A stretch of DNA of 64,000 bases from an uncultured Gemmatimonadota bacterium (GCA_951812955.1 OX638340.1:3520001-3584000); one strand, 5' to 3'; positions 4,644 to 18,176 are shown, counted from the stretch's first letter. The notes: a model not told the origin generated them from the letters alone. Numbers and translations: made by a program.

Positions 4644-6980
4644 ATGACTTTCGAGTTCCGACTTACGTCACGGCGTTTGGGACGCTTCCTCGTCCTGCTG
4701 CTCGCCTGCCTTGCCCTTCCTTTGCTCGTCACGTGCGGCAGGGACACTCCCACGCAGTCACGGACCGCGGTCCCGGCGCGGGTAGTGGTCACGCCTGTGG
4801 CCACGGATCTGGCATCGGCAGGACAGACTGTGCGACTCAACGCCCGGGCGCTTGACGACGCCGGCCAAGAAGTCTCGGAGGCTCCTGTTGCCTGGCGCAG
4901 CACCGACGCGTCGGTGGCGCGCGTGAGCGCGGACGGCGTGGTCACCGCCGTGGGGGAAGGCAGCGCCCTCATAACGGCCATGGCCGGCCAGAAGACGGCT
5001 CAAGCGAAGGTGACGGTGGCGGACCCGGTGCGCGCGGCGCTGCGGGCGCTGTACGAGGCGACGGGCGGGGCGAACTGGAAGAACAGCGACAACTGGCTGA
5101 GCGCCCGGCCCGTTGGCGATTGGTACGGGGTAATCGGCGAGCCATCCGGACCGAGCGGGATTTCGCAACGGAGAACCAGCGCCGGCGGACTGACGCGCCT
5201 GGACCTGTCCGGCAACGGATTGACGGGCGAGATCCCTCCCGTGCTGGGCAGCCTGGCCGGTCTTCGTTATCTGGACCTTTCCGACAACGCGCTGTCCGGC
5301 GCGATCCCTCCTGCGCTGGGCAACCTGTCGTCCCTCGAGACGCTGAAGCTGCACGATAACCGGTTGTCGGGCGAGATCCCTTCGGAACTGGGCAACCTGG
5401 AAAGTCTCCGGGAGCTGTCTCTGCACGGCAACGGGCAACTGACCGGTGCGTTGCCCCTTTCGCTCGCCAACCTGGACCGTCTGGAAACGTTATCCCTTTC
5501 GGGTACGCAGTTGTGCGCGCCGACCGATGCCGCGTTTCAGAACTGGCTGCAAGGAATCGCGAACAGGACCGGCATCTTCAATTGCGGCAACGATACGGAC
5601 GGCGACCGGAACGTGCTGCTCGCCCTGTACAACGCGACGGACGGTCCCAACTGGACGACCCGTACGAACTGGCTGAGCACCCGTCCCCTGTCGTCCTGGC
5701 ACGGGGTGGGCGTGAACGCCGCAGGGCGCGTCGACAGCCTGATCCTCGAAGACAACGCGCTGGCCGGACCGATCCCCGCCAGCCTGGGCAGTCTCGCCGG
5801 CCTCGTGGCGCTGGACGCGAGTGGCAACCAGTTGTCCGGCAGCATCCCGGAGGAGCTGGGCGATCTCTCCGGTCTGGTTACGCTTGATCTCAGCAACAAC
5901 GCGTTGACCGGACCGATCCCGCCGGCGTTGTTCAGCCTGCCCAATCTCGTTACGCTGGAGCTCTCCGGCAATCGGTTTACGGATATCCCGGATACAGACA
6001 TCCCGGATACAGGCACCCCGGTCCTGACGGATCGGGATGTGCTGGTTGCGCTCTACAACGCCACGGACGGCGAGAACTGGACGAACAACACCAACTGGCT
6101 GAGCGACAGGCCGCTAGGGGAATGGCACGGGGTTCGCGTCAATGCGGAGGGGCGCGTCGAAGGACTGGACCTTAGCGCTAACCAGCTATCGGGCCCGATC
6201 CCGACCGAACTCGCAAGCCTCACCAAGTTGACACATCTGTATCTTTACGATAACCAGCTATCGGGCCCGATCCCGGCAGAAATCGCAAGCCTCACCAATT
6301 TGACAGAGCTGGACCTTAGCGAGAACCAGCTATCTGGCCCGATCCCGTCCGAACTCGGCAGCCTCACCAAGTTGGAAGATCTGTGGCTTTTCGGTAATCA
6401 GCTATCGGGTCCCCTGCCCGGAACGTTCACCGGTCTGACAAACTTGGAAAGACTGTCCATCGAAGGAACCGGGTTGTGCGCGCCGACGGACGCGGCCTTC
6501 CAGGCGTGGTTGAGGGGAGTCGATGACAAATCTGGAGTGGTCAACTGTGCCGGCTCAAGCCCAGACCTGATCGTCGCATCGCCATCGGTAAGCGACGACA
6601 CCCTGACGACGGGGCAGTCTTTCACGCTGAGCGCGTCGGTGCGCAACCAGGGCACGGGGCGGTCAGCCTCGACGATCCTGCGCTATTACCGGTCTTCGAA
6701 TTCGACCATCTCATCGTCCGATACGCAGGTCGGCACGGACGCCGTGAGCGCACTGGCCGCATCGGGAACGAGCGCTGAATCGATCAGCCTGTCCGCGCCT
6801 TCGAGCGTCGGGACGTACTACTACGGCGCGTGCGTGGACGAGGTAAGCGGCGAGAGCGATACGGGCAACAACTGCTCTACGGGCGTGCGCGTCACGGTGA
6901 TGGTCGAGGATGACCACGGCGATACTCGGTCTGGAGCGACATCCCCTCGCGCTGAGCGGTTCGGTCTCGGGACGGATTGA
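4644..6980 (+). CDS. LRR lipoprotein 1: lipobox signal, Big_2 domain, three plant-type LRR supermodules, CARDB domain; reading frame broken near 6943
   Basis: Signal and lipobox LLVTCG. Big_2 (VVVTPVATDL...AKVTV). N-caps LYxATxGxNWxxxxNWLSxRPxxxWxGV. 24-aa LRRs LxxLxxLxLxxNxLSGxIPxxLG. C-caps GTQLCAPTDAAFQNWL. CARDB (PDLIVASPSV...GTYYYGACVDE...NNCS). Confidence 0.75.
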   Translation: MTFEFRLTSRRLGRFLVLLLACLALPLLVTCGRDTPTQSRTAVPARVVVTPVATDLASAGQTVRLNARALDDAGQEVSEAPVAWRSTDASVARVSADGVVTAVGEGSALITAMAGQKTAQAKVTVADPVRAALRALYEATGGANWKNSDNWLSARPVGDWYGVIGEPSGPSGISQRRTSAGGLTRLDLSGNGLTGEIPPVLGSLAGLRYLDLSDNALSGAIPPALGNLSSLETLKLHDNRLSGEIPSELGNLESLRELSLHGNGQLTGALPLSLANLDRLETLSLSGTQLCAPTDAAFQNWLQGIANRTGIFNCGNDTDGDRNVLLALYNATDGPNWTTRTNWLSTRPLSSWHGVGVNAAGRVDSLILEDNALAGPIPASLGSLAGLVALDASGNQLSGSIPEELGDLSGLVTLDLSNNALTGPIPPALFSLPNLVTLELSGNRFTDIPDTDIPDTGTPVLTDRDVLVALYNATDGENWTNNTNWLSDRPLGEWHGVRVNAEGRVEGLDLSANQLSGPIPTELASLTKLTHLYLYDNQLSGPIPAEIASLTNLTELDLSENQLSGPIPSELGSLTKLEDLWLFGNQLSGPLPGTFTGLTNLERLSIEGTGLCAPTDAAFQAWLRGVDDKSGVVNCAGSSPDLIVASPSVSDDTLTTGQSFTLSASVRNQGTGRSASTILRYYRSSNSTISSSDTQVGTDAVSALAASGTSAESISLSAPSSVGTYYYGACVDEVSGESDTGNNCSTGVRVTVMVEDDHGDTRSGATSPRAERFGLGTD

Positions 6981-17000: not shown

Positions 17001-18176
17001 GAGATCGATCCCGACAGGACGTTGGACTCCGCGCTCGGTATCGCCGGCCGCATCCCCGAGACGGGAAGGATTACGCCGGATGTGCGAGAGCTTCCGACCT
17101 TCGATCTGACGCTGATCCCTTTTTTATGGACAGAAGGTCCCGATCATTCCGTGTTGTCCGCAATCGAAGGGCTCACGCCGGAATCCGATCTGATGCGGCC
17201 GACCCGAGATCTGCTGCCGGTGAGCGACTTCCAGTTGTCGGTGCACGCGCCGGTATGGACTTCAGTGGATCCCGTATCCGATAACGTAGGCGATCTCGGA
17301 CCCGAATTGGAGGCCATCTATGCCCTTGAAGGAGAAACAGGCTACTATATGGGCATCTTCAGACTGGCCGGACCGCAGGGCGGACTACTGGGGATAGCTC
17401 AGGATATACCCAGCTACTTGAGTTTCTCCATCCTCGATCCTTACGTCATTGCACATGAACTGGGGCACAACCTGAATCTCTATCATGCGCCATGCGGCGG
17501 TGCTCGCGGCCCCGATCCGTTCTACCCATATGGGGATGGTTCCATTGGGGTTTCCGGATACGATATGATGAATGAATCCCTGGTGAGTCCGCAAACCTGG
17601 GACCTGATGAGTTATTGCGAACCGATGTGGATCAGCGACTATTCCTTTTCCAGGGCGTTGAGCCATCGAATCGCGCTGGGCGCTACGATCCCGCCGGCTT
17701 TTGCGGCCGTCACGAGAGGCCTGCTGGTCTGGGGGGGTCTGGACGAAGCCGGGGAACTCACCCTCGAGCCCGCCTTTGTAGTTGACGCGCCGCTTAAGCT
17801 GCCGGAATCCGATGGTCCGTATACCATCAGGGGAGAGCGCGAAGACGGCAGCAATCTGTTCTCACTTTCCTTTGCCATATCGGAATACGCCGATACCGAG
17901 GGAGGATCCTTCGCTTTCATTGTCCCCGTGCGGGAGACCTGGCCCGGAAACCTGCACCGTATAACGCTTTCCGGTCCCGGGGGGTTTGCCGAGATCGACG
18001 GAGACGGGGACCGTTACATGGCGCTCATGCGGGACAGCGTAACCGGCGAGGTCAGAGGCATTCTCAGAGACTGGCCTGATCCATCGGATACCTCGGCAGC
18101 GGGCCGGCGTATCCCGCCCGAACCCGGGATGGAAATAACAGTCAGCGGTGGTGTTCCCGATCGGGATTCGTGGTAG
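14064..18176 (+). CDS. LRR lipoprotein 3 (1370 aa): lipobox signal, LRR supermodules, C-terminal metzincin-like zinc metalloprotease domain (paralog of 9083..14005)
   Basis: LVRCGRDSPTKP lipobox. Same N-cap/LRR/C-cap architecture. AHELGHNLNLYHAPCGG plus DLMSYC. Only 58 nt from the previous stop, so probably co-transcribed. Confidence 0.8.
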   Translation: MIRHTRLTSMTVIMLLALPILVRCGRDSPTKPQPPTPARITVTPQSPTPTAAEQISTRDDLVKDESGAEIADAVSDRAALIALYNATNGQHWTNNRNWLSEAPLGQWHGVTTDENGRVQRLKLFQNNLYGPVPAELGSLEKLVQIDFGANRLNGVIPPELGSLSKLGDLGLGYNNLSGAIPPELGKLSNLSWLYLAANNLSGAIPDELGNLVIMRYMSFNNNPGLYGTLPLTFTNLTSLESLYIGGTKICAPPTPEMEAWIATVPDHDVATTCADLDIEALTGLFNSTGGSDWTNKENWLSDAPLSDWYGITTNEIGRVKGLSLPNNNMRGVLPPEIVDLAALRNLNLSLNEGLAGSLPLRFTTLSLESLRLEGTHVCASRDASFQDWLNGIPNRSVADCAELDTDALVALIGLYASTGGKNWTNNENWLSQSPLSWWYGVTVDANGRVTELDLSDNNLSGALPASMGKLVDLKLIDLGGNTGLVGPLPESLTGLPIESLNLEGTGLCAPADSGFRSWLNGIGGTSGVDDCAEDLPDWQALVTFYNETNGSNWEDNTNWLSAEPLDEWFGVSTDASGRVTALELAWNNLLGPLPAALSRLDKLERLNLGANELSGPIPPDLGKLENLRVLNLFFCWISGTIPPELGRLTNLEILDLSANGRTLTGTLPVELGKLAKLKVLDLGGNGLYGPIPEELSRLAELEVLDLRWNGFSGSIPRVFGKLANLTVLRLNGNKVSGGIPRELGLLSEIEILDMGRNGLAGPVPGEFENLTNLSGLNLSRNNLSGSIPAELSHMNALETLDLSYNKLTASVPGGLGRLANLRELVLAGNTGMAGPLPAEFVELNLETLMLGDTGLCAPRDAEFQSWLRFVQNSRVTPCAVPVEATAYLTQASQSLDHPVPLVAGEDALLRVFLKADGETDIPIPPVRASFYQGGGVVYIADAPGEASDVPASFEEETLTATANVRVPGSVVIPGVELVVEIDPDRTLDSALGIAGRIPETGRITPDVRELPTFDLTLIPFLWTEGPDHSVLSAIEGLTPESDLMRPTRDLLPVSDFQLSVHAPVWTSVDPVSDNVGDLGPELEAIYALEGETGYYMGIFRLAGPQGGLLGIAQDIPSYLSFSILDPYVIAHELGHNLNLYHAPCGGARGPDPFYPYGDGSIGVSGYDMMNESLVSPQTWDLMSYCEPMWISDYSFSRALSHRIALGATIPPAFAAVTRGLLVWGGLDEAGELTLEPAFVVDAPLKLPESDGPYTIRGEREDGSNLFSLSFAISEYADTEGGSFAFIVPVRETWPGNLHRITLSGPGGFAEIDGDGDRYMALMRDSVTGEVRGILRDWPDPSDTSAAGRRIPPEPGMEITVSGGVPDRDSW

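What the first reader, a model, noticed from the sequence alone, without database searches (positions are those of the whole stretch)
4644..18176. Three tandem giant lipoproteins built from eukaryote/plant-type LRR supermodules
All three genes share one grammar: a lipobox signal (..TCG[KR]DSPTQ), Big_2 domain(s), then repeated supermodules. Each supermodule has an N-cap (ALYNATNGxNWTNNxNWLSxxPLxxW[YH]GVxxDxxGRVxxLxLxxNNLxGxxP), four to eight 24-residue LRRs of the plant-specific class (LxxLxxLxLxxNxLSGxIPxELGxL) and a C-cap ([ELV]EGTxLCAPxDxxFQxWLxxIxxxxxxxC). The W..W.GV..RV..L.L N-cap resembles the LRRNT_2 cap of plant receptor kinases but lacks the Cys pair. Bacterial LRR proteins are usually of the 20-22-residue bacterial or typical class. 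Three paralogs total about 3,800 aa here. Candidate roles are host, algal or cell-surface recognition.
Basis: partly seen in the sequence, partly recalled or inferred. Interest (0 to 1): 0.8.

Follow-up and report, generated by a model that had tools for sequence, protein, structure and literature searches.

The report
Plant-type LRR surface proteins fused to metalloproteases

Summary
Three large ORFs lie at 4602/4644-6980, 9083-14005 and 14064-18176. Together they contain 11 "supermodules", each with an N-cap, 24-residue LRRs and usually a two-Cys C-cap.

The LRRs are clearly plant-specific (PS) class. A high-confidence model of one supermodule matches whole plant SERK/BAK1-type ectodomains best.

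Corrections:
- Gene C has no Big_2 domain.
- Modules hold about 3-12 LRRs, not 4-8.
- One module lacks the C-cap.
- Gene A carries a 1-nt frameshift before its PPC domain.
- A small lipoprotein ORF sits between A and B.
- B and C each end in a ~480-aa metzincin zinc-protease region (HExxHxxxxxH plus Met-turn; weak Pfam M66 match).

The rarity claim fails. The N-cap profile hits 25,938 protein clusters. The LRR+protease architecture recurs in at least 227 loci, in Latescibacterota, Gemmatimonadota, Acidobacteriota, Chloroflexota and other MAGs. Several of these are named sponge MAGs. A close relative carries tandem orthologues of B and C.

The N-cap shows no profile similarity to Pfam LRRNT_2.

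Most likely these are surface-anchored or secreted proteases that use LRR modules to bind protein targets, plausibly host proteins. Substrate and location are inferred, not shown.

The parts
4644..6980 (+). Gene A (ORF opens at GTG 4602; likely ATG start at 4644). It has a leader with Cys at 4734-4736, Big_2 at about 4779-5021, three LRR supermodules and a CARDB domain at 6558-6881. The frame ends prematurely at 6980.
5028..5585 (+). A supermodule M1: N-cap, about 5 PS-LRRs and C-cap. It has an insertion after the N-cap.
5604..6011 (+). A supermodule M2: N-cap and about 4 PS-LRRs, with no C-cap. It ends in a DIPDT repeat linker.
6030..6548 (+). A supermodule M3: N-cap, about 5 PS-LRRs and C-cap.
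6942..6945 (+). CCCC run. Removing one C joins gene A's frame to the PPC frame, reading ...DDHGDTRSGATS-LALSGSVSGRIDPGTDVDYF.... This is an apparent frameshift, either a sequencing error or a pseudogene.
6946..7482 (+). Continuation of gene A in the +1 frame. It holds a PPC (pre-peptidase C-terminal) domain at about 6991-7188, a Gly-rich linker and a small C-terminal domain of unknown type.
7785..8336 (+). A 183-aa ORF with a lipoprotein-like leader (…LVALAC-GDDD). It has no confident family match.
9083..14005 (+). Gene B (1640 aa). It has a leader with Cys31 (9083-9175), two Big_2 domains (about 9269-9763), four supermodules and a C-terminal metzincin region.
9779..10726 (+). B supermodule M1 (316 aa, about 11 LRRs).
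10736..11107 (+). B supermodule M2 (124 aa, about 3 LRRs).
11126..11497 (+). B supermodule M3 (124 aa, about 3 LRRs).
11534..12553 (+). B supermodule M4 (340 aa, about 12 LRRs). It contains a 72-nt tandem DNA array at 11774-12319, including two identical 24-aa units.
12554..14002 (+). B C-terminal region (483 aa): a beta-sandwich, a metzincin catalytic domain with HEIGHNINLYH at 13283-13315 and the Met-turn DLMSYC, and a second beta-sandwich.
14064..18176 (+). Gene C (1370 aa), starting 58 nt after B. It has a leader with Cys24 (14064-14135), no Big_2, four supermodules and a C-terminal metzincin region.
14289..14882 (+). C supermodule M1 (198 aa, about 6 LRRs). This is the module modelled at pLDDT 96.6.
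14892..15263 (+). C supermodule M2 (124 aa).
15282..15656 (+). C supermodule M3 (125 aa).
15672..16697 (+). C supermodule M4 (342 aa, about 12 LRRs).
16698..18173 (+). C C-terminal metzincin region (492 aa), with HELGHNLNLYH at 17454-17486. It is 51% identical to the equivalent region of B.

Best explanation
B and C are exported zinc metalloproteases of the metzincin type, probably lipid-anchored at the cell surface. Tandem plant-type LRR modules, each a self-contained capped solenoid the size of a SERK ectodomain, precede the catalytic region. I propose these modules act as protein-binding arms that bring targets to the protease. A is a non-catalytic paralogue with the same LRR modules followed by CARDB and PPC domains.

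The genes belong to a large family shared by many phyla, in which several members come from named sponge MAGs. The most likely targets are therefore extracellular or cell-surface proteins of the host or its matrix.

Shown here: the domain architecture, an intact catalytic motif, purifying selection, and the family's distribution.

Inferred, not shown: export and lipidation, LRR-mediated substrate recruitment, and the identity of the substrates.
For: Architecture and LRR class:
- Domain architecture and PS-LRR class are established.
- The supermodule model has pLDDT 96.6 and is closest to plant SERK, BIR and FLS2 ectodomains. These are, from general knowledge, peptide- and protein-binding receptor domains.

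C-terminal protease region:
- Pfam Peptidase_M66 scores 25.5 bits for B against a cut-off of 20.6.
- In a 42-sequence alignment H244, E245, H254, M295 (Met-turn) and C298 are invariant and H248 is nearly invariant (90% or more).

Selection, from comparison with the orthologue pair in L003:
- dN/dS is 0.17 in the protease region and 0.10 at LRR scaffold positions.
- dN/dS is 0.35-0.39 at the variable LRR positions.
- Both parts are therefore under constraint, and the LRR surface evolves faster.

Modularity:
- The same protease region is found behind LRR modules, Big_2 or CARDB in homologues, for example P0037 with CARDB x2.

Export:
- The leader plus a conserved Cys is present in the paralogues, the orthologues and distant homologues, some of which have a canonical A-C or S-C junction.

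Ecology:
- Homologues occur in SB06xx and RHO MAGs and in Ca. Palauibacter irciniicola and ramosifaciens.
- A syntenic contig comes from an assembly named ROBB21-1.
- LRR repeat proteins are reported as enriched in sponge-associated MAGs (PMC8163846).
Against: - No substrate, activity or localisation data exist.
- The lipobox is non-canonical (T or R at position -1), and no signal-peptide predictor could be run.
- The M66 match covers only about 70 of 306 profile positions and is below the cut-off for C (20.3 bits alone, 18.7 in the whole protein). The conserved Gly of HExxHxxGxxH is Asn here.
- There is no evidence of positive selection on the concave LRR face (dN/dS 0.39 against 0.35 for other variable positions), and dS is near saturation.
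- The family is not proven to be sponge-specific. Isolation sources were read only from record names, and some members (for example Ca. Palauibacter soopunensis) may come from sediments.
- No secretion-system or regulatory genes lie nearby.
- Promoter and terminator scans were uninformative.
Confidence: 0.55

Rival explanations
1. The proteins are eukaryote-like decoys. The plant- or animal-like LRR modules mimic or bind host pattern-recognition or adhesion proteins, which helps a sponge symbiont avoid phagocytosis or immune clearance. The protease domain is secondary, for example serving self-processing or shedding of the LRR arm.
For: [quoted passage not shown]
- Gene A has the LRR modules without a protease.
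- Thousands of proteins carry these modules without a protease domain.
Against: - The protease motif is invariant across the family and under purifying selection, so it is not a decaying appendage.
- The phagocytosis data in the literature concern ankyrin-repeat proteins, not LRRs (reference list seen).
- No host partner is known.
Confidence: 0.2
2. The proteins are nutritional exoproteases. They digest dissolved or particulate proteins, collagen/spongin or glycoproteins for food, and the LRR, Big_2, CARDB and PPC domains act as generic substrate- or surface-binding modules.
For: - The window also encodes an M14 carboxypeptidase-like protein, PhoX, a phosphodiesterase and a ceramidase-like protein, which suggests a scavenging lifestyle.
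- PPC and CARDB are typical appendages of secreted proteases.
- Sponge MAGs are enriched in enzymes that degrade sponge tissue components (PMC8163846 abstract).
Against: - Four capped LRR modules per protein, with fast-evolving variable positions, is more elaborate than expected for a bulk-degrading enzyme.
- The closest structural relatives of the catalytic domain, ADAM/adamalysin and fragilysin, are, from general knowledge, site-specific sheddases or toxins.
Confidence: 0.15
3. The LRR modules are a recent horizontal acquisition from a plant or alga, that is, a captured receptor ectodomain.
For: - Sequence and fold are closest to plant LRR receptor ectodomains.
- N-cap-like fragments occur in records named Ectocarpus and Laminaria.
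- The island has lower G+C (0.54-0.60) than its flanks (0.62-0.68).
- Miyashita et al. 2013 proposed transfer between plants and bacteria.
Against: - The N-cap differs from plant LRRNT_2: it has no Cys pair and gives no profile hit.
- Identity to plant proteins is only 21-32% in the top structural alignments.
- The module occurs in 25,938 protein clusters, including complete bacterial chromosomes of several phyla. Any transfer would therefore be ancient and its direction unknown.
- The ORFs are uninterrupted bacterial genes with bacterial leaders and bacterial accessory domains.
Confidence: 0.05

Closest known systems
Plant small LRR receptor ectodomains (SERK1/BAK1, OsSERK2, BIR2/3, SOBIR1) and plant-specific (PS) LRRs in general
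   Same: - The repeats are 24 residues with the PS consensus LxxLxLxxNxL(s/t)GxIPxxLGxLxx (PMC2946307).
   Different: - The N-cap has no Cys pair and gives no Pfam LRRNT_2 match.
- The C-cap has a longer helix-containing loop between its two Cys residues.
- Modules are concatenated 3-4 times in one bacterial protein.
- There is no transmembrane helix or kinase. The modules are fused to Big_2, CARDB/PPC or a metzincin.
Bacterial proteins with PS-type LRRs: Xanthomonas XopAC/XopAE, Leptospira LIC_11051 and LIC11098, and the cases surveyed by Miyashita et al. 2013
   Different: Scores are far below the family cut-offs (120-168 bits against 450-1000). The window proteins have no type III effector domains. 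They have an N-cap/C-cap supermodule organisation and a protease fusion.
Bacteroides LRR proteins 4ECN/4ECO and Pfam LRR_10 (PF18805)
   Same: These are the only solved structures matched by the N-cap profile. The aligned motif is D..AL.A...A.dG.nW....NW....l..W..GV..d..GR. LRR_10 hits equivalent N-caps above its cut-off in other proteins.
Peptidase family M66 (StcE) and other metzincins (adamalysins/ADAMs, fragilysin, CpaA)
   Same: The HExxHxxxxxH zinc site, the Met-turn and the metzincin fold are shared. NCBI names family members 'M66 family metalloprotease'.
   Different: - Only the active-site segment matches the M66 profile.
- The Gly of HExxHxxGxxH is Asn in B and C.
- The flanking beta-sandwich domains and the LRR arm are specific to this family.
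Eukaryotic-like repeat proteins of sponge symbionts
   Same: These are LRR-rich proteins, and family members and close relatives come from MAGs whose names point to sponges. The phyla involved (Latescibacterota, Gemmatimonadota, Acidobacteriota) are reported to be rich in such repeats.
   Different: In the papers read here these proteins are counted by domain only. The capped PS-LRR supermodule and its fusion to a metzincin were not described in any paper I could find. A search for M66, sponge, symbiont and metalloprotease returned 0 papers, and the Palauibacterales paper mentions neither LRRs nor peptidases.

Membership tests
Plant-specific (PS) LRR class | Repeat length of 23-25 residues | tested here: met
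   46 of 47 parsed units are 24 residues and 1 is 25.
Plant-specific (PS) LRR class | Consensus LxxLxLxxNxL(t/s)GxIPxxLGxLxx (PMC2946307) | tested here: met
   Position frequencies are N9 100%, L11 80%, S/T12 67%, G13 85%, I/V/L15 89%, P16 85%, L19 74%, G20 59% and L22 83%. The 'typical' class signature is found in 0% of units.
Plant-specific (PS) LRR class | Closest sequence and structure neighbours are PS-LRR proteins | tested here: met
Pfam LRRNT_2 (plant LRR N-terminal cap) | Profile match to PF08263 | tested here: not met
   Six N-caps and one whole short module gave no LRRNT_2 hit at E<=10. Whole-protein scans gave none either.
Pfam LRRNT_2 (plant LRR N-terminal cap) | Conserved Cys pair flanking W.GV (from general knowledge of the family) | tested here: not met
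   None of the 11 N-caps contains Cys.
Pfam LRRNT_2 (plant LRR N-terminal cap) | Same position and fold: a helix, a loop and a strand packing on the first LRR | tested here: inconclusive
   The model has helix 2-11 and strand 35-37 before the first LRR. Whole-module superposition on SERK-type ectodomains covers 197 of 202 residues.
Pfam LRR_10 (PF18805) | Score at or above the 30-bit gathering cut-off | tested here: not met
   Window N-caps score 13.8-15.6 bits. Homologous N-caps in P0316 and P0317 score 31-39 bits, so the relationship is plausible but sub-threshold here.
Metzincin metallopeptidases | HExxHxxxxxH/D zinc motif with the catalytic Glu | tested here: met
   The motifs are HEIGHNINLYH in B and HELGHNLNLYH in C. 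H244, E245 and H254 are invariant and H248 is nearly invariant (90% or more) in 42 sequences.
Metzincin metallopeptidases | Met-turn downstream of the zinc site | tested here: met
   M295 is invariant, in DLMSYC.
Metzincin metallopeptidases | Metzincin catalytic fold | tested here: met
Peptidase family M66 (StcE-like) | Pfam PF10462 score at or above the 20.6-bit gathering cut-off, over most of the profile | tested here: inconclusive
   B scores 25.5 bits for the domain alone and 23.2 in the whole protein, which passes. C scores 20.3 and 18.7, just below. Only profile positions 183-252 of 306 are matched. No NCBIfam model was matched at E<=0.01.
Peptidase family M66 (StcE-like) | Mucin or O-glycoprotein-specific cleavage | not testable with these tools
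   This needs enzymology.
Bacterial lipoproteins | Lipobox [LVI][ASTVI][GAS]-C after a hydrophobic leader | tested here: inconclusive
   The leader and the Cys are present and conserved. Position -1 is T (A and B) or R (C). Orthologues and homologues have TS-C, VR-C and PA-C. No SignalP or LipoP was available.
Xanthomonas type III effectors XopAC/XopAE/XopL | NCBIfam score at or above the cut-off (450-600 bits) | tested here: not met
   Scores are 59-168 bits and cover only the LRR segment.
Internalins | NCBIfam internalin models at or above their cut-offs; 22-residue LRRs | tested here: not met
Eukaryotic-like repeat proteins of sponge symbionts | Eukaryote-type repeat domain encoded in a sponge-associated bacterial genome | tested here: inconclusive
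   The repeat type is confirmed. The window's own source is unknown, because the exact protein is not on record. A syntenic relative comes from the ENA assembly ROBB21-1_SAMN13943213. Family members occur in SB06xx and RHO MAGs and in Ca. Palauibacter irciniicola. Sponge origin is inferred from these names and from my own knowledge.

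The most novel reading that the evidence does not exclude
These genes represent an undescribed family of LRR-guided surface metzincins, shared horizontally among unrelated symbiont phyla (Latescibacterota, Gemmatimonadota, Acidobacteriota, Chloroflexota, Gammaproteobacteria, Opitutales). Their SERK-like modules bind specific sponge cell-surface or matrix proteins, and the protease clips those proteins. 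This would be a bacterial 'sheddase' system for manipulating host recognition or phagocytosis. The reading also implies that the capped 'plant-specific' LRR ectodomain is an ancient module that is widespread in bacteria, not a plant invention.
Probability: 0.2. Interest if true: 0.65.

Novelty: new member of a known kind. Interest (0 to 1): 0.35.

Why it matters
LRR repeat proteins are repeatedly listed as hallmarks of sponge symbionts, but only as domain counts. This locus shows that a sizeable subset are capped, plant-type LRR modules concatenated in front of an intact metzincin protease. That gives a concrete biochemical hypothesis that can be tested: LRR-targeted proteolysis of host or matrix proteins.

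The finding also shows that the 'plant-specific' LRR class, with a SERK-like capped architecture, is abundant in bacteria (25,938 protein clusters for the N-cap alone). This bears on the origin of plant receptor ectodomains.

For this window itself the result is mostly a correction. The feature is real and better defined than before, but it is an ordinary member of a large, automatically annotated family.

Tried and rejected
- **Exact look-up of protein C** in the contig index found nothing on record, so the window's own source and sample stay unknown.
- **Pfam LRRNT_2** on isolated N-caps at E<=10 gave no hit.
- **phmmer of the N-cap alone against PDB** gave no hit at E<=10. The N-cap profile against PDB gave only weak Bacteroides hits.
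- **The search for homologous proteins with the 44-column N-cap profile** returned only short fragments of 45-77 aa, apparently because candidates are picked by length, so few taxon names were obtained. The representative-library search was used for counts instead.
- **Positive selection on the concave LRR face** was not seen. dN/dS is 0.39 there against 0.35 at other variable positions, and dS is near saturation.
- **Promoter and terminator scans** were at background levels.
- **Literature search** for M66 with sponge symbionts returned 0 papers.
- **Rejected interpretations:** eukaryotic contamination or a misassembled plant or algal gene is ruled out by uninterrupted ORFs, bacterial leaders, Big_2/CARDB/PPC domains and orthologues in complete bacterial chromosomes. 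Type III effector and internalin membership are ruled out by scores far below the cut-offs.
- **Phylum of the window** was not determined. The nearest genome (L003) is titled only 'MAG: bacterium', and the next-closest protease regions are from Latescibacterota.

Full report
**What is in the sequence**

The region holds three large + strand ORFs:
- B: 9083-14005, 1640 aa.
- C: 14064-18176, 1370 aa, starting 58 nt after B.

A 183-aa ORF with a lipoprotein-like leader lies between A and B at 7785-8336.

Motif parsing finds 11 "supermodules": 3 in A, 4 in B and 4 in C. Each opens with a highly conserved N-cap (…ALYNATNGxNWTNNxNWLSxxPLxxW[YH]GV..D..GRV). Ten of the 11 close with a two-Cys C-cap (GTxLCAPxDxxFQxWLxxxxxxxxxC). 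Module A-M2 has no C-cap.

A six-frame scan finds these motifs nowhere else in the window.

Modules are 124-342 aa long. That corresponds to roughly 3 to 12 LRRs, not 4-8.

Pfam finds Big_2 in A (one copy) and B (two copies) but not in C. It finds CARDB in A.

A's PPC domain sits in the +1 frame (6910-7482). One extra C in the CCCC run at 6942-6945 separates "…DDHGDTRSGATS" from "LALSGSVSGRIDPGTDVDYF…". Gene A is therefore either hit by a homopolymer sequencing error or a recent pseudogene.

**LRR class**

Of 47 cleanly parsed units, 46 are exactly 24 residues. The consensus is LxxLxLxxNxL(S/T)GxIPxELGxLxx, with N9 at 100%, G13 at 85% and P16 at 85%. This is the published plant-specific (PS) consensus LxxLxLxxNxL(t/s)GxIPxxLGxLxx of 23-25 residues (PMC2946307). 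The "typical" class signature occurs in none of the units.

phmmer of B against all PDB sequences ranks plant receptor ectodomains first: GSO1 at 2.9e-155, then FLS2 and PEPR1. Leptospira and animal LRR proteins rank far below.

**Structure of a supermodule**

C-M1 (202 aa) was modelled with a 78-sequence alignment and gave pLDDT 96.6 and pTM 0.91.
- Foldseek against PDB: all top 50 hits are plant LRR ectodomains. SERK1, OsSERK2 and BAK1 are covered over their whole length (TM 0.74-0.84).

One supermodule is therefore structurally a SERK-like capped ectodomain.

**The N-cap is not LRRNT_2 by any profile test I could run**

- Isolated N-caps give no Pfam LRRNT_2 hit at E<=10. They give only sub-threshold LRR_10 (PF18805) hits of 13.8-15.6 bits.
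- The N-cap alone finds nothing in PDB by phmmer.
- A 41-sequence N-cap profile finds only the Bacteroides LRR proteins 4ECN and 4ECO, at E 0.22, though the motif alignment is convincing.
- LRR_10 passes its cut-off on equivalent caps in other proteins.
- Alignments to plant proteins extend across the cap only when LRRs are included in the query.
- None of the 11 N-caps contains Cys.

The cap is thus positionally and topologically equivalent to the plant cap, but homology is not demonstrated.

B and C each end in a region of about 480 aa. The two regions are 51% identical to each other.
- Sequence: the zinc motifs are HEIGHNINLYH (B) and HELGHNLNLYH (C), followed by DLMSYC.
- Pfam: Peptidase_M66 is matched weakly. 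B scores 25.5 bits against a cut-off of 20.6 and C scores 20.3. Only the active-site segment of the profile is matched.
- Conservation: in a 42-sequence alignment H244, E245, H254, M295 (Met-turn) and C298 are invariant and H248 is nearly invariant.

I call it a metzincin. M66 membership is uncertain.

**Distribution**

The protease region has 610 homologues with E<=0.001 among the 8000 candidates scored. Those with names are Gemmatimonadota, including Ca. Palauibacter, and some are named "M66 family metalloprotease". Many carry LRRs upstream.

A scan of GTDB representative genomes confirmed 227 loci. The best 80 are in Latescibacterota, Longimicrobiales/Palauibacter/other Gemmatimonadota, Acidobacteriota, Chloroflexota, Gammaproteobacteria and Opitutales. 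Many of the records are titled as complete chromosomes.

In those loci the ORFs with the zinc motif mostly span 1000-2489 codons measured stop to stop. They carry up to 3 N-caps and up to 22 PS-LRR matches. The window's "giant" proteins are therefore typical of the family.

Locus L003, from an unclassified MAG, has tandem orthologues of B (1523 aa) and C (1332 aa).

An ENA contig named ROBB21-1_SAMN13943213 shares the flanking gene order: SelA and AIRS upstream of the LRR-protease genes, RDD and MR_MLE downstream.

The names SB06xx and RHO, and the species irciniicola and ramosifaciens, point to sponge MAGs. That is an inference from names and my own knowledge. [quoted passage not shown]

The supermodule by itself is far more widespread:
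- One module as query gave 1837 hits. The named ones are from Chloroflexi, Caldilineaceae and Gemmatimonadetes MAGs.
- 77 of the top 120 hits have the N-cap, but only 12 have this C-cap. A different Cys-containing C-cap (…SGC[IL]P…LGLP[FY]C) is common instead.
- The N-cap profile hits 25,938 of 1.84 billion representative proteins at E<=0.001 and 10,235 at E<=1e-10. One protein has up to 20 copies.
- Partner domains include SLH, Big_2 and Laminin_G.
- Short N-cap fragments also carry brown-alga names, Ectocarpus and Laminaria.

PS-LRRs in bacteria were already treated by Miyashita et al. 2013, cited in PMC9471246. I could not read that paper itself.

**Evolutionary constraint**

Compared with the L003 orthologues, the parts differ in how fast they change:

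| Region | Amino-acid identity | dN/dS |
|---|---|---|
| Protease regions | 81-83% | 0.17 |
| LRR scaffold positions | 85% | 0.10 |
| Concave variable LRR positions | 45% | 0.39 |
| Other variable LRR positions | 57% | 0.35 |

Both halves are functional genes under purifying selection. The LRR surfaces evolve faster, but positive selection is not shown, and dS is near saturation.

Repeat number also changes between orthologues: there are 24-residue gaps in B-M4 and C-M1, and one Big_2 in L003 against two here. Within gene B there is a 72-nt tandem DNA array with two identical units.

**Interpretation**

The best-supported reading is that B and C are exported, probably lipid-anchored metzincin proteases. 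Their concatenated SERK-like LRR modules would serve as protein-binding arms. A is a non-catalytic paralogue with the same modules.

Export is inferred from the hydrophobic leaders and from the conserved Cys-Gly-(K/R)-Asp-(S/T)-Pro-Thr junction. That junction is conserved in orthologues and is canonical in some homologues. In this window, however, position -1 is T or R, so lipidation is unproven.

LRR-mediated targeting is suggested by the way the protease region is combined with LRR, Big_2 or CARDB modules in different homologues. The substrate is unknown. A host (sponge) surface or matrix protein is the most plausible guess given the family's distribution.

The rivals are pure host mimicry or decoy function, nutritional proteolysis, and recent transfer from a plant or alga. 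They are weighed in the rival-explanations section.

**Verdict**

The feature is nevertheless an ordinary member of a very large bacterial family that databases annotate automatically.

What this analysis adds is the metzincin fusion and its spread across several bacterial phyla. That combination is uncharacterised, and I found no paper describing it.

Noticed in passing
window 6942-6945: A CCCC homopolymer carries one extra C, which splits gene A from its PPC domain and C-terminal part (6946-7482). This is either a sequencing error or a recent pseudogenisation.
   Followed up: partly
window 7785-8336: A 183-aa ORF with a lipoprotein-like leader (MRILLMMIVLVALAC-GDDD) lies between genes A and B. 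It has only faint DUF5640 and TIGR03066 similarity, and its function is unknown.
   Followed up: partly
window 18577-19502: Three small ORFs (83, 79 and 97 aa) each have one hydrophobic helix followed by a coiled-coil-like repeat (…LEDKMDARF…). They overlap a 33-nt tandem repeat at 19335-19457 and lie near a 17-nt repeat at 18865-18921. Small genes of similar size follow the LRR-protease genes in L081.
   Followed up: no
window 4001-20000 versus its flanks: The LRR-protease island has lower G+C (0.54-0.60) than the flanking DNA (0.62-0.68). In both the window and L081 it sits between an AIRS-family gene (2806-4014) and RDD/MR_MLE genes (19517-21147). This could mark an inserted island or simply reflect LRR codon composition.
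   Followed up: partly
L003 585-5156 compared with window 9083-14005: Orthologues differ in repeat content. L003-B has one Big_2 where the window has two. Its last supermodule contains a run of nearly identical 24-aa units (LTDLEQLNLSGNNLSGTIPSEIGL), which indicates recent unit duplication or homogenisation.
   Followed up: partly
proteins P0122, P0123, P0133, P0135: Many homologous supermodules end in a different two-Cys C-cap (…NxLSGC[IL]PxxLxxxxxxDLxxLGLP[FY]C) instead of the GTxLCAP…W…C cap seen in the window. There are therefore at least two C-cap types behind the same N-cap.
   Followed up: no
proteins P0260, P0277: N-cap plus first-LRR fragments (MAQTDREALVALYNATGGPNWKQDGNWNTDADLSQWHGIKTNDQGRV…) are deposited under Ectocarpus sp. 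and Laminaria digitata. The cap may also occur in brown algae, or these may be bacterial contaminants in algal assemblies.
   Followed up: no
protein P0037: This family member has two CARDB domains in place of LRR modules in front of the same protease region. The protease is thus combined with interchangeable binding modules.
   Followed up: no
window 21159-24116, 26368-28140, 28412-29716, 56027-57535: Neighbouring genes include a 985-aa M14 carboxypeptidase-like protein, a type I phosphodiesterase, a neutral/alkaline ceramidase-like protein and PhoX. Together they suggest a scavenging or host-lipid-related repertoire.
   Followed up: no
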